From Patescibacteria group bacterium (GTDB lineage: Bacteria > Patescibacteriota > UBA1384 > XYA2-FULL-43-10 > 1-14-0-10-43-13): a stretch of 64,000 nt of DNA. The stretch is taken from assembly GCA_038078835.1 (NCBI GenBank), contig JBBTQI010000001.1:722-64721 (forward strand), read 5' to 3'. Shown here piece by piece: positions 11,143 through 61,760 of the stretch. Under the pieces are notes generated by a model that did no database searches, was not told the DNA's origin, and saw only the letters and a program-made list of their open reading frames with translations. Made by a program: the position numbers and the translations under genes. Each line of letters begins with the position of its first letter. The first letter of the stretch is position 1.

Positions 11143-12309
11143 ATGAAACAAAAGCGAACGGCGCCAATTTGGCTTAAAGTTCTAATCATCTTCCTTGCTT
11201 GGAAGGTTTTATTGCTGTTTGCCGTGATCATTTCGGTCACTGAGGTTCTGCAAATCAAAAATCCGGAGAAACAACCCAAGATCAACGCTCCGATCTTTAT
11301 CCAGGCTGCGGTCAAGTGGGACGCCGGCTACTATTTAAAGATTGCCGAGGAGGGCTATGGTAGTGAACTCAATTCCAAGCCGGCCTTCTTCCCTCTCTTT
11401 CCACTACTTTTAAAAACCGGCACCAGCTTAACTGGGATGCAGCCGGCGACCGTCGGGCTTATTATCAATACCTTCGCCGCTTACTTTGCTTGCCTCTTTC
11501 TCTATCTCCTGGCCATTGAATACTTTAGTCAAGATAAAGAGAGCGCCAACCGAACGCTTCTCCTCTTTCTCTTCTTCCCGATGTCCTTCTTTCTGACCGC
11601 CCTCTATACCGAGGCGCTAACCTGTGCCCTGACCTTTGGCGCTTTTTACTATGCCAAAAAACAACGCTGGGCTTTGGCTAACTTTCTGCTTTTACCCTTA
11701 ACCGCCCTCCGTCTGCCTGGTTTGATCGCGGCCGGGGCTATTTTTACCGAATATCTATCCTCTCAACACTTCAGTTTAAAAAAAATAGACCGCCGGATTG
11801 GCTGGTTTATTCTCGCCCCGCTTGGCCTTATCGGTTATATGACCTACCTTTATTTTCACTTTGGCGATGCTCTGGCTTTTCTCCACGCTTATAATTACGA
11901 GTGGGAGTACTATCAGCGGAACTTTAATATTCTGGCCACCGTCTGGCGGGAGACCGCTAAAATTGGCTCGCTCCTTTTGGCCGGACCGGCCGGACTCAAT
12001 GAGAACTTAACCAATGAGCTCATCTACTTTATTCCCTGGGTGGCAACATTCGTTCTGGGAATCATCGGCCTCAAAAAAATGCCGGCAAGCTATTCGGTTC
12101 TGACTTTTTTGACGCTTTTTCTTGTCTCCAGCTCCAGCCACTTTGTCGCCGTTGGCCGCTACGTTCTGCCTCTTTTCCCGAATTATCTGATCTTGACAGA
12201 TCTCCTACGTTTCCGCTCACCCGCCCTCTTTGGCGCTATTTTAGCCGCCTCGGCGATCCTGCTAGGAATCTTCCTCCTTCTCTTTAGCAACGGTTACTGG
12301 GTCTCTTAA
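11143..12309 (+). CDS. GT-C fold membrane glycosyltransferase, PIG-V/GT76-like (mannosyltransferase-like)
   Basis: 388 aa polytopic protein with WDAGYYLKIAEEGYG ... FFPLFPLLLK, reminiscent of the PIG-V / DUF2029-type GT-C families. Confidence 0.45.
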   Translation: MKQKRTAPIWLKVLIIFLAWKVLLLFAVIISVTEVLQIKNPEKQPKINAPIFIQAAVKWDAGYYLKIAEEGYGSELNSKPAFFPLFPLLLKTGTSLTGMQPATVGLIINTFAAYFACLFLYLLAIEYFSQDKESANRTLLLFLFFPMSFFLTALYTEALTCALTFGAFYYAKKQRWALANFLLLPLTALRLPGLIAAGAIFTEYLSSQHFSLKKIDRRIGWFILAPLGLIGYMTYLYFHFGDALAFLHAYNYEWEYYQRNFNILATVWRETAKIGSLLLAGPAGLNENLTNELIYFIPWVATFVLGIIGLKKMPASYSVLTFLTLFLVSSSSHFVAVGRYVLPLFPNYLILTDLLRFRSPALFGAILAASAILLGIFLLLFSNGYWVS

Positions 12310-13083
12310 TAGATCTCGAACCCGGCAAAACTGATCGGGGCCAAAAGTGTTGATGAGACGCTCGACATCGGCCAGAAGGGGCGGTCCGGTCTGGATATTG
12401 TAATAGAATGGAACATGGCGGCTCCGCATTGGGATAAACTCCCAGGAGTGGAAATAAAGAACGGGCGTAACCCCCTGCGCCAAGAGCCAGCGGCAAGCGC
12501 CGATGGTTCGCCGCACCCCCAAGACGCGGGTAAAGAGCCAGCTAATCGGCAGGCGATGACGGCTGACGGCAACCGGAATCTCGACGATCAAATGATGCGG
12601 GAGCGGCCGGAAGGGAGCCAGGGGTGAGCAGGCATGATTGTAAAATCCGGGCAGATAGGCCGGATGGAGCGAACTGTCGTAAGCAAAACCGAATTTGTCC
12701 AAGATCTCCAAAAGCTGAGTTGAATACTGCATCTGCGGCGAGCGGAAACCCAATATCTTTGTGCCGACAACCCTCTCCAGTGTCTGTTTGGCCAATTTAA
12801 TATCCGCCGCCAGATCCAGTTCTGCGTTGCCGCGATAATAGTGGCTGTGGCCATGGCAGGCGATCTCGTGTCCCGCCCCGGCGATCTTCCTCACCTGAGC
12901 CGGCTCCCCTAGAGCATAATCACCGGTGACAAAAAAAGTCGCCGGCACCTTCGTCGACCTCAATAAGCGCAAGAGTCGGATATTGCCCTCTCTGCTTTGC
13001 CGGGTTTCGCCATTCTCCGGCACATCGTGTCCCTCAAGCAGGGGACAATTCCATTGTTCGCAGTCAATCGTTAAAGCGATCAT
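12262..13083 (-). CDS. Polysaccharide deacetylase (CE4 family)
   Basis: MIALTIDCEQW, TFFVTG and HGHSHY resemble the CE4 motifs (TFDDG-like, HxxxH). Confidence 0.7.
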   Translation of the reverse strand: MIALTIDCEQWNCPLLEGHDVPENGETRQSREGNIRLLRLLRSTKVPATFFVTGDYALGEPAQVRKIAGAGHEIACHGHSHYYRGNAELDLAADIKLAKQTLERVVGTKILGFRSPQMQYSTQLLEILDKFGFAYDSSLHPAYLPGFYNHACSPLAPFRPLPHHLIVEIPVAVSRHRLPISWLFTRVLGVRRTIGACRWLLAQGVTPVLYFHSWEFIPMRSRHVPFYYNIQTGPPLLADVERLINTFGPDQFCRVRDLLRDPVTVAKEKEEDS

Positions 13084-13901
13084 CGAGCCAGAGCCTCCTC
13101 CAAACTCTCTTCCACCAATGGGATAGCCGGGTCGGCTGAAGTTTTAAGCAAGCGGTGCCGCCGCCAACGCAGGATTAAACAGTCTTTGAGCGTTCGGAGG
13201 GCTAATCTGAGCGAGGATTTGGATGCGCCCGCCAGCCGATCACAAACTTTAATCGGCATCGTTTTGATCGGGTAGCCCATCAAAGCAAAACCGATGAGCG
13301 TCTCCAGCTCAATCATGCCGTAATTGAGAGTAAAGTTAATGTTGCGCAAATCCGCCCGCGCCATCAGCTTTAAGGAGTTGGCATCGGCGGTCTTCAAACC
13401 AAAGAGGAGAGAAACATAAGCGTTGTAGGCCCGGGATTGCCAGCGGCGAAAGACCGAATAATACTTGTTTTGGGGCAAGCCGATAAGAAAGCGCAAATTC
13501 TCCCGCGTCGCCCGGTCATACATCCGCTTTAGGTCAGCCGGGCGATACTGGAGATCGGCGTCGAGGAAAGAGACGTAGTCCTTGGCGGCGGTGGCAAAGC
13601 CGGTCCGGATAGCGTGGGAGTAGCCGCGATTGGGCGAGTAGTAGAGATAGCGTACCGCCGGAAAGTGTGACAGAGTTTCGAGCATCAACCGATGGGTCCG
13701 GTCGGTACTGCCGTCATTGACGACGATAACCTCAAAATCACTGCCGGCAAATGTCCGACAGGTCTGCTTTAAGCACGGAAGGATACACTCCTCCTCATTA
13801 TAGACGGGAATGACGATTGATAGCCCCACCAGACCTCCGTTTCTTGGAACAATAACCAAGATACAAGAAACAACAATCACTAAGATGTAATAATCAAACA
13901 A
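13080..13901 (-). CDS. Glycosyltransferase family 2 (polyprenyl-phosphate sugar synthase, DPM1-like)
   Basis: LSIVIPVYNEEECI...VIVVNDGSTDRT...FLDADLQY. N-terminal start is uncertain. Confidence 0.75.
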   Translation of the reverse strand: MFDYYILVIVVSCILVIVPRNGGLVGLSIVIPVYNEEECILPCLKQTCRTFAGSDFEVIVVNDGSTDRTHRLMLETLSHFPAVRYLYYSPNRGYSHAIRTGFATAAKDYVSFLDADLQYRPADLKRMYDRATRENLRFLIGLPQNKYYSVFRRWQSRAYNAYVSLLFGLKTADANSLKLMARADLRNINFTLNYGMIELETLIGFALMGYPIKTMPIKVCDRLAGASKSSLRLALRTLKDCLILRWRRHRLLKTSADPAIPLVEESLEEALAR

Positions 13902-14070: not shown

Positions 14071-16326
14071 TTACTTGCTGTCTTGCTTACTTGCCTGCTC
14101 CTCGGAGCCTTGGCGCAGTGGGGCTGTCTTGCTGACAAAAACGATGTCGGCAATCGCATTTTCCCCGGCGACATTGATGATTTTGATCTCGTCGTCCGCT
14201 TTAATATCGATATCGCCCAGCTTGCGCCAAACAAACTTTTCCACTCCAACATCCTTGTCAACTTGGAACTTGTCACCCTTCGGGTGATCGCCCGCAGGGC
14301 GAAAAACTGAAAACTGGAAACTTCCTGACGAGCCTCCGACAAGGTGGCGAATCCAGAGCTCATAGGAGCCGCTCTCAGTCGCTTTTCCTGACAGAACGCT
14401 CTCCGGCTTGTCGGTGTAGATAAAATCCTGCCGCAGTTGGGTAAAGAGGTGTTTGCGCCAGAAATCATACCGTCCCCGACTCCAACCATCTTCATAGTAG
14501 GCAAACCCCCTTGCCCACTCCGTTATCGGCAATTGTTTAATTGCCTTATTGCCCCACTGTCCCCTTGCCGAATTGCCAATTTTGGTTATTCGATCATTGG
14601 AATTTATTTGGGATTTGTTGTTTGGATTTTGGAATTTGAAAATATGGATATTTTCCCCGAACCTCTTTGTTTCCACCAATCCCTCCTTTGATCTCACCAA
14701 TGCCAGAAGATCGGTCTGATTCCACTTTTTGACGATAACCGGATCGGTCTCTCGCCAAAGATTGGAGGCTTGAGCAAAGCGGCTCTCCGTATCCAGACGA
14801 AGAATGACGCAATCAACGCCGCCCTCTGCCAGCAGAGAGGCAAATTCGCCCTGATCATGCTTTTCGTAAAATTGCGACACTAATTCATTGCGATAGAACC
14901 GCTCGGCCGTCGGCAAAAAAGAGAAGGTCGCGCCATCGTCAAGGCGCGGCACACCCAGCGCCAGAGCCAAGAGATCGGAGTTGGCCGCATCGCGAAATTC
15001 GGCCCGCTCATCTTTAAAGTAGACAAAGCCCAGTCCCGGCGGATAATAGGCCTTTTGACACACACCGCTATCAGCCAGATAATTTTTCAGTTCCCGATAC
15101 TCCGCCGGCACTTTGGTGAGCGGCAGGTAACCGGCATAGTCAAACGTTAAATAGGGCGCGATGATAAATAAGGCGCTGCCGGCAAGCAAGGTCTTAAGGC
15201 CGGAGGCTAAAGGCCGGAGGCTAAAGGCCGATAAGCAAGCGAAAAGATAATCCAAGCCAAAGGCAAAGAGAATAATGGCGGCGGCCGCGACAATGAATTG
15301 GAGATGATAGATCTCGCGGAAAATACCCAGCGCCGGTATCCGCTCAAACAGCGCGACAAAGATTGGCCCCAACGGTCCGCTCGGACCCTTGGGAAAGGGG
15401 GCAACCGATATTAACGTCAATATGCTGGTCAGCGCCAATTCGCGGCGGGGACGATTCCCGAGGCCGAAAAGAGCCGCCAACCAGAAGACAGCCAAACCAA
15501 AAAGATAGCGGGGATCATGCGAGAGGGCGTAAAAGAAATTATGGGTAATCTGGTGATCGGAGAAGTTCAGAAAATTCCCGGCGCTGTGGGGCATCATTCG
15601 CATATACTCCAGCGTTGTGACGGCCACTGCCCTAATCTGCTCCGCACCCTGATCATAGCTCAAAGACAAGACGAACCAGGGCAGAAGAAAGAGGACAAGA
15701 GCCGACCAAGAGAAGATCAAATTAAAGAAACGCTCTCGTCGTCGCCCGGCGGCAACGAGAAGGTTAATCATCAAAAAGAGGGTCAGAAGCAGGCCCGCCT
15801 GGACTTGGGCAAAAACAAGCGAATAAAGAAAACCCAAACCAAGATAGTGCCGCCAGTTTTTTTTCTTGATATTAAAATAAAGGTGGAGAAAAAAGGGCAA
15901 GGCGGCGAAGGCCAAAAGCGACCAGCGGAAACCAACAATTGTTCGGACAAAAAGATAAGGATTAAAGGCGTAAACCAGAGCCGAAATCGTGGCAGCGAGC
16001 CGGTTTACGCCTTGCGACTTAGCGAAAAGAAAAAACCCGGCGGCGGCCAGAGCGTGAAGAAGAATAAGAAAGAGAGCGAAACTGAACTCCGGTCGAAATA
16101 GACCCAGCGGGGCCAGAAGAATCAAGCCGTTTTTGCTGGCAAAGTCAAAGGGATTGCCGGCCCGAAAATCGCCAAACTCCCGCCAAAGATTTCTCATATC
16201 CAGAAGCGGCCAATCCCAATCATAACGAAGGGGCAGGCCGTCTGATCGCAAATGCGATAAAACCAAAACAGCAAGCATCAATAAAGATACCGCAATCACT
16301 TGTTTTGATTTGATTATGTTAAACAT
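14071..16326 (-). CDS. Large GT-C fold membrane protein (YfhO/ArnT-like) with C-terminal extracytoplasmic domain
   Basis: 751 aa with an about 12-TM N-terminal region and a soluble C-terminal domain. Carries in-frame repeat insertions at 14581-14645 and 15193-15236. Confidence 0.55.
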   Translation of the reverse strand: MFNIIKSKQVIAVSLLMLAVLVLSHLRSDGLPLRYDWDWPLLDMRNLWREFGDFRAGNPFDFASKNGLILLAPLGLFRPEFSFALFLILLHALAAAGFFLFAKSQGVNRLAATISALVYAFNPYLFVRTIVGFRWSLLAFAALPFFLHLYFNIKKKNWRHYLGLGFLYSLVFAQVQAGLLLTLFLMINLLVAAGRRRERFFNLIFSWSALVLFLLPWFVLSLSYDQGAEQIRAVAVTTLEYMRMMPHSAGNFLNFSDHQITHNFFYALSHDPRYLFGLAVFWLAALFGLGNRPRRELALTSILTLISVAPFPKGPSGPLGPIFVALFERIPALGIFREIYHLQFIVAAAAIILFAFGLDYLFACLSAFSLRPLASGLKTLLAGSALFIIAPYLTFDYAGYLPLTKVPAEYRELKNYLADSGVCQKAYYPPGLGFVYFKDERAEFRDAANSDLLALALGVPRLDDGATFSFLPTAERFYRNELVSQFYEKHDQGEFASLLAEGGVDCVILRLDTESRFAQASNLWRETDPVIVKKWNQTDLLALVRSKEGLVETKRFGENIHIFKFQNPNNKSQINSNDRITKIGNSARGQWGNKAIKQLPITEWARGFAYYEDGWSRGRYDFWRKHLFTQLRQDFIYTDKPESVLSGKATESGSYELWIRHLVGGSSGSFQFSVFRPAGDHPKGDKFQVDKDVGVEKFVWRKLGDIDIKADDEIKIINVAGENAIADIVFVSKTAPLRQGSEEQASKQDSK
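14581..14645. repeat. CAAAT-family element copy inside CDS (in-frame, encodes FKFQNPNNKSQINSNDRITKIG)
   Basis: ttggaatttatttgggatttgttgtttggattttggaatttg. Same orientation relative to the coding strand as the other intragenic copies. Confidence 0.55.
15193..15236. repeat. GGCC-type 13-mer tandem repeat (AAGGCCGGAGGCT x about 2.7) inside CDS
   Basis: cttaaggccggaggctaaaggccggaggctaaaggccg. In-frame, encodes ...SAFSLRPLASGLK.... Related copies at 1-45 and 57326-57390. Confidence 0.6.
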
Positions 16327-16694
16327 TAATCGCTCGGGGCGGCGCCGGACCTGCCGTCTTTTTCCCGTCGCAGCTCAACCAATGCCATTACTACAGCCAG
16401 GATCAAAAAATAATAGGTATAAATGGCAAACTTCTCGGCATAATCTTCTTTGCCCATTATCAACAAAACCGGCACCAAACAAAGGAAATACAGCGCGACT
16501 TTGGCGTATCGGGAGCTTGACCAAGGATTCAATATCGCCCAAATAATAAAAGCCAGGCCGGCGATATTATCTATCGACCAATTAAAATCAATACCAATTA
16601 AAATACCGATTGTGACAAACAAAAGATCAAGGTACGGCTTTGGCAGATACCGGCGATATAACTGAATTAACTTTTGCTTGATTTCCGGCAGCAT
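16326..16694 (-). CDS. Small (122 aa) 3-4 TM membrane protein, paralog of 20889..21272
   Basis: LNPWSSSRYAKVALYFLCL aligns with LNPIRSELLLKVALALMAL in the 127 aa paralog. Function unknown. Confidence 0.5.
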   Translation of the reverse strand: MLPEIKQKLIQLYRRYLPKPYLDLLFVTIGILIGIDFNWSIDNIAGLAFIIWAILNPWSSSRYAKVALYFLCLVPVLLIMGKEDYAEKFAIYTYYFLILAVVMALVELRREKDGRSGAAPSD

Positions 16695-16703
16695 CTCAAT
16701 TTT

Positions 16704-27662: not shown

Positions 27663-27663
27663 C

Positions 27664-54574: not shown

Positions 54575-54698
54575 TGCACCTCCAAATGAAAAAATCCCGA
54601 ATATGATGACAGTCAAGATAGTTGAATATCTCGCTTATATCTTAGTTCGATTCACCTGTTCACAATATTATCAAAACTGAAAATTTTAAGGAAGGACC

Positions 54699-54735: not shown

Positions 54736-54740
54736 CCTGT

Positions 54741-55121
54741 CTAGAGACGAAGGAGCTCAAAGCTGTTGGCGGAGTCTCTGATCTCGTTCTCCAGCCGCCC
54801 GAACTCGTCCCTGAGCACTCTGGCAAAAGCCAGGCTTGTGCCGCGAAAGAGCCGCTCGGCATCGTCAACGCCCTCGCAGCGGGTAGCGTTGACGAAATCG
54901 CTAAAGCTCCAGTGTGTCGGCTCCGGTCCCCTGATGTAGAACCGATCGCTCGGCAAGAAGCTCACCGTCGCCTGCAAGCCCCAGAGCGGCATCGCCAGCA
55001 CGGCGCCGATGCCGGCCTCCATCGCCAAATCCGAGGGATTGCCGGCCAGCGCCGCCCGCGCCGGCACCGAATATAAGAGTGATCGGATCGGCCAATCGTT
55101 CCCTGTGATCTCCATCTCCAT
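54741..55121 (-). CDS. Hypothetical protein (126 aa) in a GC-rich islet
   Basis: ORF in a locally GC-rich segment (54.7-55.1 kb) bounded by its own terminator hairpin. No recognisable family. Alternative overlapping frames exist, so coding status is uncertain. Confidence 0.3.
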   Translation of the reverse strand: MEMEITGNDWPIRSLLYSVPARAALAGNPSDLAMEAGIGAVLAMPLWGLQATVSFLPSDRFYIRGPEPTHWSFSDFVNATRCEGVDDAERLFRGTSLAFARVLRDEFGRLENEIRDSANSFELLRL

Positions 55122-55257
55122 CTCCTCTCATCAGAGACCATCGAGAGTGAAGATAACCGATTGTGCAAAAATAAGCAAGTAAAGCTCGTAGAGCAATAAG
55201 ACTATATAAAATAAATGCCTTACCAGCTTTACTGCGGATCTATTGATTCATCCTTTA

Positions 55258-56196: not shown

Positions 56197-56975
56197 TGTT
56201 CCGCCTCCACAATTTTGATCGCTCGAAAAGTCTTTGTCTGATCCGGCTGGCGGCGATAATAGTTGAGGACCCGGGCCCGGTAAAAGATCGCCAAGGTGTC
56301 AACCAGCATCCTTTTGATCGTGCCAAAGGTGGCCGCGCCAACTTTGCCGGCGTTAAACTTCATCTCCACCGGCGCCTCAAAGATACGGTGGAAGCCCAGC
56401 TGGCGGGCAATCACCAGCATCTCCAGATCAAAGGCATAGCGCTTGACCAGAACTCGCAGCATAACATCCTTGGCCGCCTTCTTGCGCAGAAACTTCAGAC
56501 CGGTTTGGGTGTCGGTCACATTCAAGCCAAAGAGAATTCGCACCATCTTGTGATAAGCATAGGAGTAGAGGCGGCGAGCCGGAGGATAATTAATCTTTGA
56601 GGCAGGATGGCGCTTGGAGCCGATCACAAAATCGGCATCAAAGATCTCCATCAGCTTGACGCACTTATCGAACTGGCCCGGATCAAAGTCGCCGCCGGCA
56701 TCGGTAAAGGTGATAATCTCCCCCTTGGCAATTCTTGTTCCGACCTTTAAGGCATAACCCTTGCCATGATTTTTGTCGTACTCAAAAACTCTGACCTTTT
56801 TGGAGCGATGGCGCCGTGCCTCTTTGGCGGTGTTGTCAGGCGAGCCGTCAACAATCACAATCACCTCGTAGTCATAGTCCAGAATATCGTGCGCCTTCAA
56901 AATATGATCTACCGTCTGATAGATGTTCTTCTCCTCCTTATACGCCGGAATGATGATTGAGAGTTTCGGATTCAT
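56193..56975 (-). CDS. Glycosyltransferase family 2
   Basis: LSIIIPAYKEEKNIYQTVDHI...VIVIVDGSPDNT...TFTDAGGDFDP. Confidence 0.8.
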   Translation of the reverse strand: MNPKLSIIIPAYKEEKNIYQTVDHILKAHDILDYDYEVIVIVDGSPDNTAKEARRHRSKKVRVFEYDKNHGKGYALKVGTRIAKGEIITFTDAGGDFDPGQFDKCVKLMEIFDADFVIGSKRHPASKINYPPARRLYSYAYHKMVRILFGLNVTDTQTGLKFLRKKAAKDVMLRVLVKRYAFDLEMLVIARQLGFHRIFEAPVEMKFNAGKVGAATFGTIKRMLVDTLAIFYRARVLNYYRRQPDQTKTFRAIKIVEAEQ

Positions 56976-57003: not shown

Positions 57004-57080
57004 TTTTCCAAATGACTAATGACGAATATGACGATCCCCTTATTGGTTATTCGTTATTTGGATAATTTGTCATCCATTTG
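57004..57080. repeat. CAAAT/ATTTG palindromic element (intergenic, between GT2 and rmlD)
   Basis: ttccaaatgactaatgacgaatatgacg paired with ttattcgttatttggataatttgtcatccatttg. Confidence 0.5.
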
Positions 57081-58056
57081 TGGCGCGATTGCGTAAGTAA
57101 TCGCCCAGCATTTCTTGCCACGGCCTAACCTCGATCCCTAATGCTGATTTAATCTTCTCTTTGGAGAGATAGGAGTAAGCCGGACGCCTGGCCACCTGAG
57201 GATATTCTGCACTAGAGATAGGCTTTAAGTCAAGAGTTGTCCCGGTTTGAGCGAAAATTTCTTTGGCAAAATCATACCAGGAGCACGCCCCCTCGCCGGA
57301 GAAGTGGTAGATACCACATGGCAAGCTTAAGGCCGGAGGCTTAAGGCCGGAGGCTACATCAATACTGCCTTCGGCCTTTGGCCTTAGGCCTTCGACGATC
57401 TGGTTAATGAAACTGACCAGATCCCCCGTATAAGTCGGCGAGCCGACTTGATCATTGACGACCGACAACGAATCGCGCTCTTTGGCCAAGTGCAGCATTG
57501 TCTCAACGAAATTTGTGTCGGGATGTCCCTCCGGCAATTCGCCGAATATCCAGGCTGTCCGGATAATGTAATAGCCGCCCTTCGGGGACTGTCCCCCTGA
57601 GAGCCTGCCCCGTACTCGATACGGGGGGACTGTCCCCTTGTATGCTCTCTCAACCGCCAGCTCCCCTTCATACTTTGTCATACCGTACACCGAGAGCGGA
57701 TGGGGCTCGTCGGTTTCGACGTACGGGACGCCATTTTCGCCGTCAAAGACATAATCGGTGGAGATGTAAATCAGGTTTACTCCGGCCGCAGCCGCGGCTT
57801 TGGCGACATTCTCGGTGCCGGCAACATTGATCCGGCGGCACAGCGCCTCGTTCTCCTTGGCCTTGTCAACTTGAGTGTAAGCCGCCCCGTGGATAATCCA
57901 ATCCGGTTTCTCCCTTGATATGACCGCGCTGACTTTATCCGGATCGGTGATATCCATATCATCGGAATCAGTCAAAATCAGCCGGTACTTAGTACCCAGT
58001 AATTCGGAAATCTTATGGCCAAGCTGGCCTTTTGCGCCGGTAACCAGAACCTTCAT
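57070..58056 (-). CDS. rmlD: dTDP-4-dehydrorhamnose reductase with two in-frame repeat-element insertions
   Basis: MKVLVTGAKGQLG...IHGAAYTQVDKAE...NVAGTENVAKAAAAAGVNLIYISTDYVFDG, the RmlD signature. 328 aa versus about 290 typical. Extra segments coincide with the repeats at 57326-57390 and 57581-57640. Confidence 0.8.
   Translation of the reverse strand: MKVLVTGAKGQLGHKISELLGTKYRLILTDSDDMDITDPDKVSAVISREKPDWIIHGAAYTQVDKAKENEALCRRINVAGTENVAKAAAAAGVNLIYISTDYVFDGENGVPYVETDEPHPLSVYGMTKYEGELAVERAYKGTVPPYRVRGRLSGGQSPKGGYYIIRTAWIFGELPEGHPDTNFVETMLHLAKERDSLSVVNDQVGSPTYTGDLVSFINQIVEGLRPKAEGSIDVASGLKPPALSLPCGIYHFSGEGACSWYDFAKEIFAQTGTTLDLKPISSAEYPQVARRPAYSYLSKEKIKSALGIEVRPWQEMLGDYLRNRATNG
57326..57390. 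repeat. GGCC-type element: TTAAGGCCGGAGGC x2 plus inverted copy (GCCTTCGGCCTTTGGCCTTAGGCC)
   Basis: In-frame within rmlD, encoding GLRPKAEGSIDVASGLKPPALSLP. Same 13-mer as at 15193-15236, and a one-mismatch variant at 1-45. Confidence 0.6.
57581..57640. repeat. Palindromic element: GGGGACTGTCCCC x2 flanking a CCCGTACTCGATACGGGG hairpin
   Basis: ggggactgtcccc at 57584-57596 and 57625-57637. In-frame in rmlD, encoding TVPPYRVRGRLSGGQSPKGG, which is absent from canonical RmlD. Confidence 0.55.
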
Positions 58057-58057
58057 C

Positions 58058-59050
58058 TCACTTGCCCCAATTCTTATATAATGCCTCGCTCTTTTTTTTC
58101 AACGGTTTCCACCAATTCGAGTTATTGGCATACCATGAAACAGTCTTCTTTAGTGCCTCATTAAACCCGTATTCCGGTTTCCAACCAAGTTCGCCTCTTA
58201 ATTTGTTCGAATTCACAGCATAGCGGACATCATGACCGGGCCGGTCTTTGACGTATTCAATTTCGTCTTCGTTTTTGTGAAAGAGTTTGATGATTTTTTT
58301 GGTGATCTCTAAATTGGTTTTGCGATATCCCGTACCAATATTATAAATCTCCCCGATTTGCCCCCTGTGCAAAATTGCATCGATGGCGCTGCAATGATCT
58401 TCGGTAAAAATCCACTCTCGGATCTGATTACCGGGAGTATAAACCGGCACTTTTTTCCCTTCTAAAAGATTAGTGATAAAACGAGGAATTAATTTTTCCG
58501 GAAACTGATAGGGGCCAAAGAAATTGCAAGAGTGAGTAATGATAACCGGGGCATTGTATGTCGTAAAGTAAGCATAAGCCAAGTGGTCGGCTCCGGCCTT
58601 AGAGGCAGAGTAAGGACTTCTTGGTTTGAAGGGTGCCTCTTCGTTAGTTGTTCCCTTTAAAACGGCGCCGAAAACCTCATCGGTTGAGATCTGAATAAAT
58701 CTTTTAATCCCGAATTTTCTTATCGCCTCAAGCAAAACACAGGTTCCCAGAACATTAGTTTTGACAAATTGATCGGGATGCAACAAGGATTGATCAACAT
58801 GTGTTTCTGCGGCGTAATTGATTATCGCATCCACACCCTCAATGGCTTTTTTAACATCATTTTCATTTGCAATATCGCCGCAAACAAACTGATAATTCGG
58901 ATTATCGTCAATATCTTTTAGGTTCTCCGGGTTGCCGGAGTAAGTTAATTTATCCAGGTTGACTATTTTGTAGTCAGGATATTTTTGAAGAATGTAGCGG
59001 ATAAAATTGGAAGCCATAAACCCGGCCCCGCCGGTGACTAATATTTTCAT
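58058..59050 (-). CDS. rmlB: dTDP-glucose 4,6-dehydratase
   Basis: MKILVTGGAGFMASNFIRYIL...VNLDKLTYSGN...YAAETHVDQS...YSASKAGADHL. Confidence 0.9.
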   Translation of the reverse strand: MKILVTGGAGFMASNFIRYILQKYPDYKIVNLDKLTYSGNPENLKDIDDNPNYQFVCGDIANENDVKKAIEGVDAIINYAAETHVDQSLLHPDQFVKTNVLGTCVLLEAIRKFGIKRFIQISTDEVFGAVLKGTTNEEAPFKPRSPYSASKAGADHLAYAYFTTYNAPVIITHSCNFFGPYQFPEKLIPRFITNLLEGKKVPVYTPGNQIREWIFTEDHCSAIDAILHRGQIGEIYNIGTGYRKTNLEITKKIIKLFHKNEDEIEYVKDRPGHDVRYAVNSNKLRGELGWKPEYGFNEALKKTVSWYANNSNWWKPLKKKSEALYKNWGK

Positions 59051-59051
59051 A

Positions 59052-59537
59052 TTACTCCTCTGTTGTCAAAGAGTCCCAATTAAAGTTAATGCTTTTATCA
59101 TAGGGGTCGATACGCTCCTCGTCAGGATTATCGCGATTGTAAGCTTTGGTCGTATGATAAAAAAGCAGGCAGGGCTCGTCAGATAAGACTTTATAACCGT
59201 GAACAACACCAACCGGAATCAAAACCAACTTGTAATCATTGCTCCCGCCATAGATAATCTCCGTTTGACCATAAGTAGGTGAATTTTTGCGTTGATCGTG
59301 CAAAACGATCGCTGCTCGACCGGAGGCCAAGAACCAAAGATCGTCCTGGTGTTTGTGCCAGTGAAAAGCCTTGATCGTACCCTTGCCGGCAATGGTAAAG
59401 TTACTCTGGCCAAACTTCGACAACAATTTGTCATCATCGCGCAGGATCTCCATAAAAATGCCCGGCTCGATATCCTGATCGAGATCGGGTTTATCGCGAT
59501 GCACCACTAACTCCTTAATTTTAACACCTTGTATCAC
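59052..59537 (-). CDS. rmlC: dTDP-4-dehydrorhamnose 3,5-epimerase (cupin)
   Basis: ...FHWHKHQDDLWFLASGRAAIVLHD...GVVHGY. True start probably GTG/TTG near 59534. The longer ATG ORF extends into the repeat element. Confidence 0.75.
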   Translation of the reverse strand: MIQGVKIKELVVHRDKPDLDQDIEPGIFMEILRDDDKLLSKFGQSNFTIAGKGTIKAFHWHKHQDDLWFLASGRAAIVLHDQRKNSPTYGQTEIIYGGSNDYKLVLIPVGVVHGYKVLSDEPCLLFYHTTKAYNRDNPDEERIDPYDKSINFNWDSLTTEE

Positions 59538-59540
59538 AAT

Positions 59541-59625
59541 GACTCCCAAATCCGATGCTAATTTACGAATGCATGCTAATGATACGAATATTCGCAATAT
59601 TCGTGTACCGATTTGTTATTCGCAT
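59541..59625. repeat. AT-rich palindromic element between rmlC and rmlA (ACGAATATTCGCAATATTCGT core)
   Basis: cccaaatccgatgctaatttacgaatgcatgctaatgatacgaatattcgcaatattcgtgtaccgatttgttattcg. Confidence 0.45.
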
Positions 59626-60335
59626 CGCCTGTTTTTCTCCGCCATGATCATATTGGCCCGCAACAGGCTGTCGAATGTTCCGGCATCCTCCCAGACACCG
59701 TCGATAATGTTGACGGAGAGTTCCCTGTTTTTAAGATAAATATTGTTTAGGTCGGTAATTTCAATCTCGCCTCGCCCTGATGGTTTCAAATTCTTAGCAT
59801 AGTTAACAACCCGATTGTCATAGACATAAAGCCCGACTACCGCATAATCGCTCTTGGGTTTCTTGGGCTTCTCCTCGATGGAGAGGGCCCGCATCTTCTC
59901 GTCAAATTCCACCACCCCAAACCGCTCCGGATCATGAACCTTTTTGGCAAAGACGCAGGCGCCGGACTTAAACGACTTGATCTGTCGAGAAAAATCGCGA
60001 TCAAAGATATTGTCCCCCAGAATCATCGTCACGCTGTCTTTGCCGATAAAAGTATCGCCGACAATAAAGGCATCGGCCAAGCCGCGCGGTTCCTCCTGGA
60101 TCTCATAACTGAACTTGGCGCCAAACTCCCGGCCGCTGCCCAGAAGGTGCAGGAACTGGCCGGCGTTATCCGGAGAGATGATAATCAAAATATTCTTGAT
60201 GCCGGCCTTAATCAGCGTCTGGATCGGATAATAGATCATCGGTTTGTCAAAAACCGGCAGAAGCTGTTTTGAGGTTACTTTAGTCAAAGGCCGAAGACGC
60301 GTCGCCCGCCCGCCCGCTAAAACGATGCCCTTCAT
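59616..60335 (-). CDS. rmlA: Glucose-1-phosphate thymidylyltransferase (short form)
   Basis: [41 protein letters not shown]... Confidence 0.8.
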
Positions 60336-60458
60336 AATATCTCCTTTGTTAATCCTGCACCTCAGAGTCCAAACTTTAGTTTGTGGGAAACGGCCCTTCG
60401 CCCAACAATCCCATTCTGCACACTAAAGTGTGTTCTCTGGCGAGTAAAAAGTGAATTA

Positions 60459-61760
60459 TTAACTTGCCTCGTCAAAATCATAGTCGCCTCTTATGACCGC
60501 TGAGAGCTGCTCCTTTTTTGTATAGAGATAATAGCCGATCATCTGGATAAAAAGCAAGCACAGACTGACAATCAAAATCCTGACCACTGCCAAAATTGAG
60601 GGGTGCCAAAGAGTTATGGCGACAATCTCCACCGCCATAACCAAACCGAATACCCAAAGAAAGAAAAAGTTCCGCACCGCCAAGTAATAACTGACAATCA
60701 GGCTGATCAGCGAATACAGGAGGACAACCATGCCTATCTCCGGCAAAATATAATGGAGACCAGTGTAAGATTGACCGTAAAGAAGGCCAATCACCTTTGC
60801 CGGCATCACGATATAAATTCCCAGTATGACCAGCGAACCCAGCAGGGTAAAGAGCAGGGAAAAAAGGAAGAGCCGATAGTGCTTCTGCCCAATCGTCCGC
60901 TGCTCGGCAATCATCGGAAACATTACGGCCACGATCGGAGTGGTAGCGTAAGTAATAATTTTGGCGATTGTTGAGACAGCGGCATAAGTGCCGGCCTCGT
61001 CGGCGGGGAAATAATGTTTGACCAGAATAACATCGACATTTAGGGCGAGGACAAGCAGGAAGGAGGCCAGCAAAGCCGGCAGAGAATAGTTGATTATCTC
61101 TTTCTTGTCAAACCGGAAGGCCTCTTTCTTGCCAGTTTTATCTCGGCTGGCCAGAATTTTTCTTAAGCTCACCAGGGAATAACCGTAAGCGATCGCCGTG
61201 GCCAAAACCCCCGCGCCGATGGCGCCACTGACGGAGAAGCCCAGCCACACCAGAGCGATACCCAGAGTCAGCCGCAAGATCATCTCTAAAATTCCCAGAA
61301 ACGAGAGAGGAACAAAGCGCTGTGTTCCCTGAAGGATGCCGCGGCTGACGACAATCAAAAAACTGAAAAAGAGGCCGGCGAAAGCCAAAATTAGCGGCGA
61401 GATCTGATCGATCGTCAAAAAGCGGCCGATTACTTTGGAGAACACTAAGCCGACCAAGAAAAGGCCGGCCGCCAAAATGAAAATATAGCGCGAGAAGATA
61501 CGAAAAAGTTTCCTTAGCGCCCGATACTCGCCCAGAGCATAGAGCTCGCCCGAGTAGCGCATTGTAACAGTTAAAATACCGCCGCCAATAACCGAGATGA
61601 TCGTCAGGAAGGAAAAGATCGCCGTCATCTCGCCGTATTGCGCCGGACCGAGCATCCGGCCCATAATCATATTAAAGAGATAAGAAAAGAAACTGGCAAT
61701 CAGGGTGCCGCCAAAGACAATCGAACTGCTGGAGAGCAGCTTTTTAGCACTGGAACTCAT
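60459..61760 (-). CDS. Polysaccharide flippase (MOP/Wzx-like)
   Basis: About 430 aa with 12-14 TM helices. Start taken at MSSSAKKLL (ATG 61758-61760) to avoid a divergent overlap with the gtrA-like gene. Start uncertain. Confidence 0.6.
   Translation of the reverse strand: MSSSAKKLLSSSSIVFGGTLIASFFSYLFNMIMGRMLGPAQYGEMTAIFSFLTIISVIGGGILTVTMRYSGELYALGEYRALRKLFRIFSRYIFILAAGLFLVGLVFSKVIGRFLTIDQISPLILAFAGLFFSFLIVVSRGILQGTQRFVPLSFLGILEMILRLTLGIALVWLGFSVSGAIGAGVLATAIAYGYSLVSLRKILASRDKTGKKEAFRFDKKEIINYSLPALLASFLLVLALNVDVILVKHYFPADEAGTYAAVSTIAKIITYATTPIVAVMFPMIAEQRTIGQKHYRLFLFSLLFTLLGSLVILGIYIVMPAKVIGLLYGQSYTGLHYILPEIGMVVLLYSLISLIVSYYLAVRNFFFLWVFGLVMAVEIVAITLWHPSILAVVRILIVSLCLLFIQMIGYYLYTKKEQLSAVIRGDYDFDEAS

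What the first reader, a model, noticed from the sequence alone, without database searches (positions are those of the whole stretch)
12262..61760. Exceptionally large single-orientation glycan locus combining Rha, Xyl, ManNAc, GalA and 6-deoxy-hexosamine precursor pathways with six GT-C enzymes and six methyl-transfer enzymes
About 45 consecutive minus-strand genes show frequent start/stop overlaps (ATGA), which implies operon-like co-expression. The content covers four separate nucleotide-sugar routes: rmlABCD; galU-ugd-UXS; wecB; and PseB/CapD plus SDRs plus a UDP-GlcA 4-epimerase-like enzyme. It also includes 13 or more Leloir GTs, 3 polyprenyl-P-sugar synthases, 2 flippases, 5 SAM methyltransferases, a B12-rSAM and 2 CE4-like proteins. 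The enzyme set predicts a heavily methylated heteropolysaccharide, or protein or lipid glycans assembled partly on the outer face of the membrane. The extent of GT-C involvement is unusual for an O-antigen or capsule locus.
Basis: partly seen in the sequence, partly recalled or inferred. Interest (0 to 1): 0.55.

Follow-up and report, generated by a model that had tools for sequence, protein, structure and literature searches.

The report
Giant surface-glycan gene island in CPR bacterium
This is a real 50-63 kb block of cell-surface sugar-polymer genes from an ultra-small groundwater (Patescibacteria/CPR) bacterium; most of it is ordinary in kind, but it contains a row of five membrane glycosyltransferases with two previously undescribed partner proteins that may show how these poorly understood bacteria build their surface outside the membrane.

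Summary
Positions 12262-61847 hold 44 consecutive minus-strand ORFs with 98% coding density. Twenty of 43 junctions overlap, nine by 4 nt, and the largest gap is 169 bp. All but a few of the 44 ORFs have a glycan-related assignment.

The source is a Hainich groundwater Patescibacteria MAG. The glycan region extends beyond the stated coordinates to about 63 kb and about 55 genes.

- dTDP-Rha
- GalU-Ugd-UXS
- a UDP-GlcA 4-epimerase-like enzyme
- WecB
- PseB/FnlA-like enzyme plus reductase
- five SAM methyltransferases and one B12-rSAM

Some counts need correcting:
- 11 GT-A/GT-B enzymes, not 13 plus 3
- one strong and two weak polyprenyl-P-sugar synthases
- one Wzx inside the coordinates
- one CE4 plus one probable CE4
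- five GT-Cs inside the coordinates, plus a PIG-V-like one that straddles the edge

No priming phosphoglycosyltransferase, LCP ligase or chain-length regulator lies in the region.

The new result concerns the five GT-Cs. All belong to the YfhO superfamily. Two of them sit in an anciently duplicated trio with a membrane-anchored triple β-sandwich (CBM-like) protein and a small 3-TM protein. Both partner families lack any Pfam/NCBIfam model and co-occur with these GT-Cs in many CPR genomes.

Best reading: a Gram-positive-style multi-component transmembrane glycosylation array. Function and operon structure are untested.

The parts
1..707 (-). 5' part of a GT4 glycosyltransferase gene (431 aa) that runs off the left end of the window; outermost glycan gene on this side
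   Evidence: Source-contig gene table, (L088 11393-12688; Glyco_transf_4/Glycos_transf_1). The next genes are an H+-PPase, VanW and a P-type ATPase.
864..4613 (-). Three tandem Wzy_C-type (O-antigen polymerase/ligase-like) membrane proteins: 864-2099, 2080-3366, 3306-4613
   Evidence: Pfam Wzy_C: 57.1 and 52.7 bits for two of them (above cut-off); 20.1 bits for the third (below cut-off). 8-12 predicted TM segments.
4799..7401 (+). Dockerin-containing protein (4799-6028) and a 414-aa protein of unknown family (6157-7401)
   Evidence: Pfam Dockerin_1 25.6 bits. No family found for the 414-aa protein.
7409..11009 (+). GT-B glycosyltransferase (7409-8740), second Wzx-type flippase (8716-10224), GT2 (10215-11009)
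   Evidence: Pfam: Glyco_trans_1_4, Polysacc_synt 93.5 bits, Glycos_transf_2 88.2 bits.
11143..12309 (+). PIG-V-like (Mannosyl_trans2, GT76-type) GT-C membrane protein; its 3' end overlaps the 3' end of the minus-strand run by 48 bp
   Evidence: Pfam PF04188 52.1 bits against a 22.4 cut-off; 7 predicted TM segments.
12262..13901 (-). CE4 polysaccharide deacetylase (12262-13083) and GT2 with ArnC/PgfS/DPMS-like catalytic domain (13080-13901), joined by a 4-nt overlap; an ArnC/ArnD-like pair
   Evidence: Polysacc_deac_1 66.1 bits. TIGR03006-like 95 bits, and ArnC 68 bits / PgfS 67 bits for the GT2. PDB ArnC E = 1.5e-15.
14071..16326 (-). GT-C membrane glycosyltransferase, 751 aa, YfhO superfamily; the 'second, ~720-aa type' that lacks the C-terminal TM helix
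   Evidence: hhalign against the 871-family profile: 94.9%. Against the deep profile: 99.9%. Weak AftD GT-C and MmpA matches at residues 86-229. The EL1 Asp and Trp are conserved.
16326..20892 (-). Trio B: GT-C 871 aa (18277-20892), membrane-anchored triple β-sandwich protein 529 aa (16704-18293), small 3-TM protein 122 aa (16326-16694)
   Evidence: AF2 model of the 871-aa protein has pLDDT 71.5. Foldseek top four hits are all STT3. Paralogy to trio A. Orthologous trios occur in L005 and L006.
20889..25347 (-). Trio A: GT-C 832 aa (22849-25347), triple β-sandwich protein 531 aa (21279-22874), small 3-TM protein 127 aa (20889-21272)
   Evidence: AF2 model of the 531-aa protein has pLDDT 92.9 and pTM 0.87: an N-terminal TM helix plus three β-sandwich domains. 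Foldseek hits include CBM22, CBM16, a porphyran CBM and a phage receptor-binding protein. The family has 248 representatives and no Pfam model.
25362..28320 (-). GT-C 766 aa (25362-27662), preceded by a 218-aa SAM methyltransferase (27664-28320)
   Evidence: hhalign 97.5% and 100%. Methyltransf_23/11. An MT-GT-C pair also occurs in L008.
28256..30580 (-). YfhO-family GT-C, 774 aa
   Evidence: Pfam YfhO 232.4 bits. NCBIfam PgfM2 98.8 bits and PgfM1 79.1 bits, both far below cut-off.
30655..32820 (-). UDP-GlcA 4-epimerase-like SDR (30655-31629) and WecB UDP-GlcNAc 2-epimerase (31705-32820)
   Evidence: PDB 5u4q E = 2e-74; 6zl6 (BcUGAepi) E = 1e-52; MoeE5. TIGR00236 447.6 bits.
32817..36039 (-). 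SAM methyltransferase (32817-33686), 523-aa probable divergent CE4-fold protein (33683-35254), SAM methyltransferase (35245-36039)
   Evidence: Pfam methyltransferase domains. The 523-aa family has 4 proteins and no Pfam model. hhalign to the window CE4: 66%, E = 5.6e-5, with invariant CE4-like motifs.
36023..40457 (-). GT4 (36023-37267); full-length ArnC/GtrB/DPMS-type polyprenyl-phosphate sugar synthase with 2 C-terminal TM segments (37185-38222); Glyco_trans_1_2 GT-B (38219-39265); GT4 (39312-40457)
   Evidence: Pfam. PDB ArnC E = 4.6e-53, GtrB sll0501 E = 1e-43, DPMS E = 3e-16. NCBIfam ArnC 206 bits, PgfS 157 bits.
40375..45699 (-). 6-deoxy-hexosamine/epimerase block: GalE-like SDR (40375-41475), rhamnosyltransferase-like GT2 (41476-42483), MT (42514-43218), 271-aa SDR reductase-like (43215-44030), PseB/FnlA-like UDP-GlcNAc 4,6-dehydratase (44012-45028), MT (45025-45699)
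   Evidence: PseB 330.9 bits (cut-off 407.75). Polysacc_synt_2 320 bits. GalE-like 4zrm E = 1.7e-55.
45696..52185 (-). GT2 (45696-46514); frameshifted DUF218 (46529-46963 and 46941-47258); GT4 (47321-48490); GT2 (48474-49490); B12-binding radical-SAM protein (49524-51152); GT2 with 4 TM segments (51160-52185)
   Evidence: Pfam. NCBIfam HpnJ-like 154 bits, below cut-off. MftF-like 124 bits for the GT2 at 51160.
52319..56975 (-). UDP-sugar supply: GalU (52319-53230), Ugd (53231-54616), 126-aa orphan ORF (54741-55121), UDP-xylose synthase (55258-56196), GT2 with DPMS/PpgS-like catalytic domain (56193-56975)
   Evidence: GalU 340.1 bits against a 326.8 cut-off; Ugd TuaD-like 549.8 bits. UXS1 E = 5e-95. 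DPMS E = 5.7e-12.
57070..60335 (-). dTDP-L-rhamnose genes: RmlD (57070-58056), RmlB (58058-59050), RmlC-like cupin (59052-59597), short RmlA (59616-60335)
   Evidence: RmlD 299.3 bits against 224; RmlB 449.8 against 365; RmlC 52.9 against 155.75 in NCBIfam, but Pfam 65 against 27. RmlA 316 against 360.65.
60459..61847 (-). Wzx-type (Polysacc_synt) flippase; first gene of the minus-strand run
   Evidence: Pfam Polysacc_synt 67.7 bits; 12 predicted TM segments.
61822..62325 (+). GtrA-family small membrane protein (putative polyprenyl-P-sugar flippase), transcribed divergently from the run
   Evidence: Pfam GtrA_DPMS_TM 76.9 bits. ENA calls it as 153 aa.

Best explanation
The region is one contiguous cell-envelope glycan biosynthesis island. 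The minus-strand run is about 50 kb. With its flanks the island is about 63 kb and about 55 genes. It belongs to a groundwater Patescibacteria (CPR) bacterium.

**Proposed mechanism**

1. Cytoplasmic enzymes supply dTDP-L-rhamnose, UDP-Glc, UDP-GlcA, UDP-Xyl, UDP-GalA, UDP-ManNAc and a UDP-6-deoxy-HexNAc. This is shown at homology level.
2. Eleven GT-A/GT-B enzymes, five SAM methyltransferases and a B12-radical-SAM enzyme assemble and modify one or more oligosaccharides on a polyprenyl carrier. This is inferred.
3. Wzx exports the product, and the flanking Wzy_C proteins polymerise or ligate it. This is inferred. The priming enzyme must be encoded elsewhere.
4. On the outer face of the membrane, five consecutive YfhO-superfamily GT-C enzymes, and possibly the PIG-V-like one, add further sugars. 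The donors would be polyprenyl-monophosphate sugars made by the ArnC/GtrB-like GT2 (or GT2s) and flipped by GtrA. This follows the multi-component transmembrane glycosylation systems of Gram-positive bacteria. The components are shown; the activity is inferred.
5. Two of the GT-Cs each work with a dedicated membrane-anchored triple β-sandwich (lectin/CBM-like) protein and a small 3-TM protein. I propose that these bind or position the acceptor polymer. This rests on conserved adjacency and on the fold, and is an inference.

The terminal GT2-CE4 pair may make a de-N-acylated polyprenyl-P-amino-sugar donor, as ArnC/ArnD do. This is speculative.
For: **Source and boundaries**
- The contig is ENA ERZ1292638 NODE_18. 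NCBI names its proteins 'Patescibacteria group bacterium'.
- The left boundary comes from the source-contig gene table.

**Gene packing**
- Junction statistics.

**Enzyme assignments**
-.

**GT-C evidence**
- The 774-aa protein hits Pfam YfhO at 232 bits.
- The AF2 model of the 871-aa protein has STT3 as its top four Foldseek PDB hits (probability 1.0, E = 8.5e-4 to 6.5e-3).
- A 97-sequence profile of the 871/832/766/751 superfamily aligns to the YfhO protein at 95.5% probability and E = 1.4e-8 over 650 columns. Wzy_C and PIG-V controls score at most 3.2%.
- The conserved EL1 Asp and Trp align with the YfhO 'GxD...PlWs..G.G' region.

**Accessory proteins**
- The 531-aa model has pLDDT 92.9. 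It has one N-terminal TM helix and three β-sandwich domains that match CBM22, CBM16 and phage receptor-binding domains.
- The family has 248 representatives among 1.84e9 proteins, and no Pfam or NCBIfam model.
- In 87 held loci, 28 of 32 genes of this family lie directly next to a GT-C-family gene on the same strand.
- The small 3-TM protein is found in 56 ORFs of those loci. In some it is fused to extracytoplasmic LytR_C, CBM_4_9 or TIG domains.
- The duplicated trio is also present in L005 and L006.

**Literature**
- The review PMC8035078 describes the system type. It explicitly speculates that a second protein may bind the acceptor.
Against: - No biochemical, transcript or glycan-composition data exist for this organism.
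- The region has no priming phosphoglycosyltransferase, no LCP ligase, no Wzz-type regulator and no ABC exporter. The product, its anchor and the number of distinct products are therefore unknown.
- Four of the five GT-Cs do not hit the Pfam YfhO model at all.
- Only one GT2 is a convincing polyprenyl-P-sugar synthase, set against six GT-Cs.
- No fusion of the β-sandwich family with a GT-C was found. Physical interaction therefore rests on adjacency alone.
- GC content drops to 0.39-0.45 between 24 and 50 kb, against about 0.50 at the edges. There are also nine gaps over 50 bp. Both are compatible with a mosaic of several units.
Confidence: 0.65

Rival explanations
1. The region is a protein glycosylation system rather than a wall or free polysaccharide system. 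The YfhO/PgfM-like GT-Cs and the Wzy_C (PglL/PilO-like) enzymes would O-glycosylate surface proteins on the outer face of the membrane. Candidate targets are pilins, S-layer proteins, or the adjacent dockerin-bearing protein.
For: - The closest NCBIfam models for the 774-aa YfhO protein are PgfM2 and PgfM1 of the S. mutans adhesin O-glycosylation system. The GT2s match PgfS.
- The top structural hits of the 871-aa model are oligosaccharyltransferase STT3 and the AglB C-terminal domain.
- Wzy_C is also the domain of the O-oligosaccharyltransferases (my own knowledge).
- A dockerin protein and an unknown exported protein lie inside the region.
- CPR genomes encode abundant type IV pili (PMC5220378).
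Against: - The PgfM matches are far below cut-off (99 and 79 bits against 1500 and 1400).
- The accessory proteins look like carbohydrate-binding modules. That points to a glycan acceptor rather than a protein acceptor.
- Three Wzy_C proteins, two Wzx proteins and 14 Leloir GTs fit polymer synthesis.
- No acceptor protein has been identified.
Confidence: 0.15
2. The region is a mosaic of several independent glycan pathways that are merely co-located and co-oriented. For example, it could hold a Wzx/Wzy heteropolysaccharide, a separate rhamnan-type polymer, and separate decoration systems. These would be transcribed from several promoters rather than as one functional locus.
For: - There are two Wzx proteins, three Wzy_C proteins, six GT-Cs, and three orientation blocks in the window.
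- GC heterogeneity.
- Nine gaps exceed 50 bp. Promoter-like sites lie in the gaps at 31711-31684 and 13982-13954.
- Only sub-blocks are syntenic elsewhere: MT-WecB-...-SDR-GT-C trios in L005, and MT-GT-C in L008.
Against: - All genes with an assignment are glycan-related. No unrelated gene interrupts about 63 kb.
- Twenty of 43 junctions overlap.
- Terminator-like sites do not exceed the number expected from shuffled sequence.
- The precursor genes at one end are needed by transferases at the other end.
Confidence: 0.2

Closest known systems
Multi-component transmembrane glycosylation systems of Firmicutes (CsbB-GtcA-YfhO; GtlA/GtlB; L. lactis CsdAB/CD/EF), reviewed in PMC8035078
   Same: All three component types are present: a membrane-linked GT-A polyprenyl-P-sugar synthase (37185-38222), a GtrA-family protein and Wzx proteins, and YfhO-type GT-C enzymes with a conserved acidic residue in the first outer loop.
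   Different: Here five YfhO-superfamily GT-Cs lie in tandem inside the main biosynthesis locus. Four of them are too divergent for the Pfam YfhO model. Two come with a separate membrane-anchored triple β-sandwich protein and a 3-TM protein that are not part of the described systems. The host is a CPR bacterium, not a Firmicute.
Streptococcal and lactococcal rhamnose-rich cell-wall polysaccharide loci (gac/rgp/cwps, with GacI-GacJ-GacK-GacL)
   Same: Both combine rml genes, many GT2/GT4 enzymes, a Wzx-type flippase, a small membrane partner protein and a GT-C decorating enzyme. In both, the priming WecA-type enzyme is encoded outside the cluster (the last point is my own knowledge).
   Different: No ABC exporter (RgpCD/GacDE type) and no LCP ligase is present. 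There are far more GT-Cs and methyltransferases. The small 3-TM protein shows no detectable similarity to GacJ/DUF2304 or GtrA.
Mycobacterial arabinogalactan/LAM GT-C set (AftA-D, EmbA-C)
   Same: Several GT-Cs build much of a polymer outside the membrane from polyprenyl-P-sugar donors. AftD carries its own carbohydrate-binding modules for acceptor binding (PMC8035078).
   Different: Here the CBM-like domains sit on a separate polypeptide. The only sequence link is a weak AftD GT-C match of the 751-aa protein (E = 1). No decaprenyl-P-arabinose pathway genes are present.
ArnC-ArnD-ArnE/F-ArnT lipid A aminoarabinose pathway
   Same: Both have a GT2 polyprenyl-P-sugar synthase, a CE4-family deacylase, a small-membrane-protein flippase and a GT-C. 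The GT2 (13080) and CE4 (12262) genes overlap by 4 nt directly after the GT-C block. A UXS/ArnA-like decarboxylase is present.
   Different: There is no ArnA formyltransferase, no ArnB aminotransferase, no lipid A and no ArnT-family (PMT_2) hit. The window CE4 is closest to XrtA-system deacetylases (95 bits, below cut-off).
S. mutans Pgf protein O-glycosylation machinery (PgfS, PgfM1, PgfE, PgfM2)
   Same: Both have a GT2 (PgfS-like, 157 bits), a 4-epimerase and two or more YfhO-like membrane proteins.
   Different: All scores are far below the equivalog cut-offs. The locus is about ten times larger. No Cnm/WapA-type substrate is evident.

Membership tests
Multi-component transmembrane glycosylation system (GT-A / flippase / GT-C) | Membrane-linked GT-A that makes a polyprenyl-monophosphate sugar | tested here: met
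   The protein at 37185-38222 aligns full length to ArnC (E = 4.6e-53), GtrB sll0501 (E = 1e-43) and DPMS. It has 2 C-terminal TM segments. Activity was not tested.
Multi-component transmembrane glycosylation system (GT-A / flippase / GT-C) | GtrA-type or Wzx-type flippase | tested here: met
   GtrA_DPMS_TM 76.9 bits at 61822-62325. Polysacc_synt at 60459-61847 and 8716-10224.
Multi-component transmembrane glycosylation system (GT-A / flippase / GT-C) | Polytopic GT-C-fold transferase with an acidic motif in an extracytoplasmic loop | tested here: met
   YfhO Pfam 232 bits for the 774-aa protein. Top Foldseek hits of the 871-aa model are STT3. The conserved Asp at position 40 of the 871-aa protein is present in all four paralogues and in 79% of 97 homologues.
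Multi-component transmembrane glycosylation system (GT-A / flippase / GT-C) | Transfer of a sugar from a polyprenyl-P-sugar to a wall polymer outside the membrane | not testable with these tools
   Requires biochemistry or genetics. The organism is uncultured.
YfhO family (Pfam PF09586) | Match to the family model above the gathering score | tested here: met
   Met only for the protein at 28256-30580 (232.4 bits against 28.5).
YfhO family (Pfam PF09586) | The same match for the 751-, 766-, 832- and 871-aa proteins | tested here: not met
   No YfhO hit even at E up to 10. The relationship appears only at profile level: 95.5%, E = 1.4e-8. They are best described as a sister family within a YfhO superfamily, not as members of PF09586.
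Wzx/Wzy-dependent O-antigen or capsule locus | Wzx flippase and Wzy polymerase | tested here: met
   Wzx is inside the coordinates. The Wzy_C proteins are only in the flank, at 864-4613.
Wzx/Wzy-dependent O-antigen or capsule locus | Initiating phosphoglycosyltransferase (WbaP/Bac_transf or WecA/MraY type) in the locus | tested here: not met
   No such domain was found in any ORF of at least 100 aa across the window, nor in the source contig's gene table beyond the left edge.
Wzx/Wzy-dependent O-antigen or capsule locus | Chain-length regulator (Wzz/PCP) and/or export (Wza) components | tested here: not met
   No Wzz, PCP or Wza domain was found.
dTDP-L-rhamnose pathway (RmlABCD) | All four enzymes at equivalog level | tested here: inconclusive
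   RmlB (449.8 against 365) and RmlD (299.3 against 224) pass. RmlA scores 316 against 360.65; it is a short 239-aa form. RmlC scores 52.9 against 155.75 in NCBIfam but passes Pfam dTDP_sugar_isom (65 against 27).
CE4 (NodB-fold) polysaccharide deacetylases | Polysacc_deac_1 domain with Asp-His-His metal-binding and catalytic motifs | tested here: met
   12262-13083: 66.1 bits against 23.1.
CE4 (NodB-fold) polysaccharide deacetylases | The same feature for the 523-aa protein (33683-35254) | tested here: inconclusive
   No Pfam hit. A 4-sequence profile against the window CE4 gives hhalign 66%, E = 5.6e-5. Invariant residues are T187/D189/E191/D192, H282/H286, R370/P372 and H465.
Class B (cobalamin-dependent) radical-SAM methyltransferases | N-terminal B12-binding domain plus a radical-SAM core | tested here: met
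   PF02310 35.7 bits and PF04055 56.8 bits. The best NCBIfam match is HpnJ at 154 bits against 577, so the chemistry (methylation or rearrangement) is unknown.

The most novel reading that the evidence does not exclude
The conserved trio consists of a YfhO-superfamily GT-C, a membrane-anchored triple β-sandwich protein and a small 3-TM protein. It may be a previously undescribed multi-subunit extracytoplasmic glycosyltransferase centred on CPR bacteria. In this reading, acceptor recognition is delegated to a separate lectin-like subunit. That is the arrangement speculated about, but never identified, in the 2021 review of Gram-positive systems. The five-GT-C array would then build a large part of the CPR surface polymer outside the membrane, in the manner of mycobacterial arabinogalactan. 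This would explain how bacteria with minimal metabolism make a complex envelope.
Probability: 0.3. Interest if true: 0.7.

Novelty: new variant of a known kind. Interest (0 to 1): 0.45.

Why it matters
The envelope of CPR/Patescibacteria is an acknowledged unknown. [quoted passage not shown] This contig devotes about 63 kb to surface glycans. That would be several percent of a typical ~1 Mb CPR genome. The size of this genome was not measured here.

The locus gives a concrete, testable parts list:
- the predicted sugars: Rha, Xyl, GalA, ManNAc, 6-deoxy-HexNAc and methylated sugars
- a Gram-positive-type extracytoplasmic glycosylation logic
- two uncharacterised protein families that travel with GT-C enzymes in many CPR genomes

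If the β-sandwich protein is an acceptor-binding subunit, it would fill a gap postulated for GT-C systems in general.

Tried and rejected
**Searches that found nothing**
- Direct sequence searches of the 871- and 531-aa proteins against PDB gave no useful hit.
- Pfam at E up to 10 gave only noise for the four divergent GT-Cs, the β-sandwich proteins and the 3-TM proteins.
- phmmer of the YfhO 774-aa protein against the ORFs of the related loci found no homologues. YfhO proper is therefore not part of the conserved cassette.

**Methods that were too insensitive at first**
- Single-sequence and 8-sequence hhalign failed to link the 871 family to YfhO (0.1-5.6%). The link appeared only with a 97-sequence profile. 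My first hhalign run used global mode by mistake and was discarded.
- Single-sequence hhalign of the 523-aa protein against the CE4 gave 0.6%. It improved to 66% with a 4-sequence profile.

A1 was used instead.

**Hypotheses tested and rejected**
- A Rosetta-stone fusion of a GT-C with the β-sandwich family: none was found in 10 large GT-C ORFs or in P0005 and P0007. The 1400-aa P0005 carries an internal insertion, not a 531-family domain.
- The small 3-TM protein as a GtrA or GacJ homologue: no hit.
- The L008 554-aa neighbour as a member of the 531 family: rejected from the alignment.

**Operon and literature checks**
- Terminator scans were uninformative. Counts equalled the number expected from shuffled sequence.
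- Literature searches for CPR together with YfhO, GT-C or glycan loci found nothing specific.

Full report
**1. Observation**

The window has 44 consecutive minus-strand ORFs of at least 100 aa between 12262 and 61847. With longest-ORF starts, they cover about 98% of the span. Twenty of 43 junctions overlap. Nine overlaps are 4 nt (seven ATGA, one GTGA, one TTGA). Nine gaps exceed 50 bp, and the largest is 169 bp.

Such a run cannot be a chance arrangement of gene orientation. That gene's longest ORF, and its public gene call (462 aa), both begin at 61847.

**2. Source**

Exact-sequence look-ups place the window on ENA ERZ1292638 NODE_18, a 179,340-bp contig. Near-identical pieces occur in Hainich groundwater samples, including a record named 'Hain_H43_01um'. 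NCBI labels the same proteins 'MAG... [Patescibacteria group bacterium]'. The organism is therefore a CPR bacterium from a groundwater well. That well is described as anoxic and was sampled on 0.1-µm filters (PMC8672522).

The closest GT-C relatives in GTDB species representatives are only 45% identical, and they come from Falkowbacteria MAGs. I could not place the organism more precisely.

**3. Extent of the region**

The glycan region is larger than the finding's coordinates.

- Left of the run, on the plus strand (4799-12309), lie a dockerin-bearing protein, a 414-aa unknown protein, a GT-B, a second Wzx, a GT2 and a PIG-V-like (Mannosyl_trans2) GT-C.
- Further left, on the minus strand, lie three Wzy_C proteins (864-4613) and a GT4 that runs off the window edge.
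- Beyond these, the source contig carries an H+-PPase, VanW and a P-type ATPase, so the region ends there.
- On the right, a GtrA-family gene (61822-62325) diverges from the run. A Phd-like antitoxin and Fe-S genes follow.

In total the region is about 63 kb and about 55 genes.

**4. Content of the run, in transcription order**

- Wzx.
- RmlA (short form), an RmlC-like cupin, RmlB and RmlD.
- GT2 (260 aa, DPMS/PpgS-like catalytic domain).
- UDP-xylose synthase (E = 5e-95 to human UXS1).
- A 126-aa orphan ORF.
- Ugd (TuaD-like, 550 bits) and GalU (above cut-off).
- GT2 with four TM segments.
- B12-binding radical-SAM protein. Its best match is HpnJ, far below cut-off.
- GT2, then GT4.
- A DUF218 gene split into two frames.
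- GT2, then a methyltransferase.
- PseB/FnlA-like UDP-GlcNAc 4,6-dehydratase (331 bits; Polysacc_synt_2 320 bits).
- A 271-aa SDR, then a methyltransferase.
- A rhamnosyltransferase-like GT2.
- A GalE-like SDR.
- GT4, then a Glyco_trans_1_2 GT-B.
- A full-length ArnC/GtrB/DPMS-type GT2 with two C-terminal TM helices (E = 4.6e-53).
- GT4, then a methyltransferase.
- A 523-aa protein, then a methyltransferase.
- WecB (448 bits).
- A UDP-GlcA 4-epimerase-like SDR (6zl6 E = 1e-52, MoeE5).
- YfhO (774 aa, 232 bits).
- A methyltransferase (218 aa).
- Four large membrane proteins (766, 832, 871 and 751 aa), interleaved with two ~530-aa and two ~125-aa proteins.
- A GT2 (273 aa, ArnC/PgfS-like) and a CE4 deacetylase.

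**5.

The four precursor routes are supported by homology. So are the five SAM methyltransferases plus the B12-rSAM.

The transferase counts are too high. Inside the coordinates there are 7 GT2 and 4 GT-B enzymes, 11 in all, and this includes the polyprenyl-P-sugar synthase candidates. Only one of those candidates is convincing. Only one Wzx lies inside the coordinates.

One CE4 is certain. The 523-aa protein belongs to a four-member family with no Pfam model. A small profile of that family aligns to the window's CE4 at 66% probability (E = 5.6e-5). The CE4-like motifs are invariant: TxDxED, HxxxH, RxP and a late His. It is therefore a probable, very divergent CE4-fold protein with a ~180-aa N-terminal extension.

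**6. The GT-C block**

None of the 751-, 766-, 832- and 871-aa proteins hits Pfam or NCBIfam convincingly. Simple hydropathy counts give 7 to 14 N-terminal TM segments. The AF2 model of the 871-aa protein shows a β-rich extracytoplasmic domain. All except the 751-aa protein also have a final C-terminal TM helix.

The evidence that they are GT-C enzymes related to YfhO is as follows.

- BLAST and hhalign tie the four together: 871 against 832 gives 100%; the 871-family profile gives 97.5% against 766 and 94.9% against 751.
- The AF2 model of the 871-aa protein has pLDDT 71.5 and pTM 0.60. Its top four Foldseek PDB hits are the oligosaccharyltransferase catalytic subunit STT3 (probability 1.0, E = 8.5e-4 to 6.5e-3, TM-scores 0.29-0.38). 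The AglB C-terminal domain appears lower in the list.
- A 97-sequence profile of the superfamily aligns to the Pfam-positive YfhO protein of the same locus at 95.5% probability and E = 1.4e-8 over 650 columns. It scores at most 3.2% against the Wzy_C and PIG-V-like proteins, which served as controls.
- That alignment places the conserved first-loop Asp and Trp (D40 and W58 of the 871-aa protein) on the N-terminal 'GxD ... PlWs..G.G' region of the YfhO protein. Both residues are present in all four paralogues.

I conclude that the run contains five consecutive YfhO-superfamily GT-Cs. Four of them form a sister family to PF09586 rather than belonging to it.

**7. The accessory proteins (the new element)**

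The order 832-531-127 / 871-529-122 is a tandem duplication of a three-gene unit. Protein identities between the copies are 42% (C-terminal part), 31% and 36%. The duplication is old. Both paralogue lineages are present, in the same order, on unrelated metagenome contigs L005 and L006/L007.

The ~530-aa family:
- It has 248 cluster representatives among 1.84 billion proteins, nearly all about 500 aa long.
- It has no Pfam model. Seven of 80 members give weak F5/8-type-C hits.
- Its AF2 model is confident (pLDDT 92.9, pTM 0.87). It shows one N-terminal TM helix followed by three β-sandwich domains.
- Foldseek matches tandem CBM22, CBM16, a porphyran-binding CBM, phage phi812 baseplate proteins, reelin repeats and the accessory domains of GH101. 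No catalytic domain is evident.

Conservation in other genomes:
- A scan of GTDB species genomes with the GT-C alignment found 370 loci. The best 79 are mostly from CPR lineages.
Of 32 such genes, 28 lie directly next to a GT-C-family gene on the same strand.
- The usual order is GT-C (~880 aa), β-sandwich protein, second GT-C (~720 aa, the 751 type), then the 3-TM protein.

The small 3-TM protein:
- Its HMM finds 56 ORFs in those loci.
- In some loci the domain is fused to extracytoplasmic LytR_C (five cases), CBM_4_9 or TIG domains.
- This suggests that it is a membrane module which carries or docks envelope-binding domains. It shows no similarity to GtrA or GacJ.

**8. Mechanism**

The component set matches the 'multi-component transmembrane glycosylation systems' of Gram-positive bacteria. 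In those systems a GT-A makes C55-P-sugar, a GtrA- or Wzx-type protein flips it, and a GT-C transfers the sugar to a wall polymer outside the cell (PMC8035078). That review notes that AftD, and perhaps YfhO, carry their own carbohydrate-binding domains. [quoted passage not shown] The trio described here is a good candidate for that arrangement.

Upstream, the Leloir enzymes, methyltransferases, Wzx and the flanking Wzy_C proteins fit cytoplasmic assembly, export, and polymerisation or ligation of a heteroglycan.

What is shown is the folds, the family relationships, the conserved adjacency and the topology predictions. What is inferred is the donors, the acceptors, physical interaction, the product and co-expression.

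**9. What argues for caution**

- The region has no priming phosphoglycosyltransferase, LCP ligase, Wzz or ABC exporter. The anchor (wall, lipid or protein) and the number of products are therefore open.
- GC content falls to 0.39-0.45 between 24 and 50 kb, against about 0.50 at the edges.
- Two gaps carry good promoter-like sites. Several transcription units are possible.
- Terminator-like sites are at chance level.
- No GT-C-β-sandwich fusion was found.
- A protein-glycosylation reading cannot be excluded. It is suggested by weak PgfM/PgfS similarity, the role of Wzy_C in O-oligosaccharyltransferases, and the dockerin protein.

**10. Novelty and verdict**

As a glycan locus, this is a large new member of a known kind. 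The CPR literature already notes many glycosyltransferases and rml genes, and states that the envelope is not understood (PMC5220378). I found no paper linking CPR to YfhO or GT-C arrays.

The tandem YfhO-superfamily array, with its conserved and unannotated β-sandwich and 3-TM partners, is a new variant of the multi-component transmembrane glycosylation theme. It gives concrete targets for structure prediction of the complex, for metatranscriptome mapping and for biochemistry.

Interest is moderate (0.45). It would be higher if the accessory-subunit model proves true.

Noticed in passing
window 46529-47258 (minus strand): A DUF218 (SanA/YdcF-like) gene is split into two overlapping ORFs in different frames: 105 aa at 46941-47258 and 144 aa at 46529-46963. 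Pfam matches only profile positions 54-119, in the downstream half. The cause could be a frameshift, a pseudogene or an assembly error.
   Followed up: no
window 54741-55121 (minus strand): A 126-aa ORF has no family hit. It sits between UXS and Ugd and is flanked by two of the largest gaps in the run (136 and 124 bp). Public annotation also calls it as a gene (124 aa, no Pfam). It may be a gene remnant.
   Followed up: partly
window 24000-50000: GC content drops to 0.39-0.45 in the central transferase, methyltransferase and GT-C part, against about 0.50 at both ends of the window. This is typical of variable or horizontally exchanged glycan loci.
   Followed up: no
window 4799-6028 (+); L008 7878-9110: A dockerin-domain protein lies inside the glycan region. 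A weak cohesin-domain protein lies next to a homologous GT-C in another metagenome contig. Together they hint at cohesin-dockerin surface display in these bacteria.
   Followed up: no
window 12262-12309: The convergent 3' ends of the plus-strand PIG-V-like gene and the minus-strand CE4 gene overlap by 48 bp. No terminator-like hairpin lies between them.
   Followed up: partly
window 61822-61864: The Wzx gene (first gene of the run) and the divergent GtrA gene have start codons only about 16 bp apart, or overlapping if the longest ORFs are used. Their promoters must therefore lie inside each other's coding sequence, or the true starts lie further in. One sample calls Wzx as 446 aa.
   Followed up: partly
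window 59616-60335: RmlA is a short form: 239 aa against about 290, and it matches only positions 1-237 of the 286-position model. It therefore lacks the usual C-terminal region, and it falls below the NCBIfam cut-off for that reason.
   Followed up: partly
L062 13614-19487: One related genome has a 1957-aa ORF that contains two complete GT-C units of this family in tandem. It is a natural fusion of two of these transferases.
   Followed up: partly
L030, L046, L055, L027, L056 (ORFs listed): In other CPR genomes the small 3-TM domain of the trio is fused to a C-terminal LytR_C domain. In L031 it is fused to a CBM_4_9 domain, and in L013 to a TIG domain.
   Followed up: yes
window 62448-63101 (+); contig beyond the right end (L001 200-856): A 217-aa protein has only an N-terminal Phd/YefM antitoxin domain. 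A recombinase gene lies about 3 kb beyond the window, at the contig end. These may be mobile-element or toxin-antitoxin remnants beside the island.
   Followed up: no
window 13962-14504 (minus strand): A 180-aa ORF in another frame overlaps the 3' end of the 751-aa GT-C gene. It has no family hit and is most likely spurious.
   Followed up: partly
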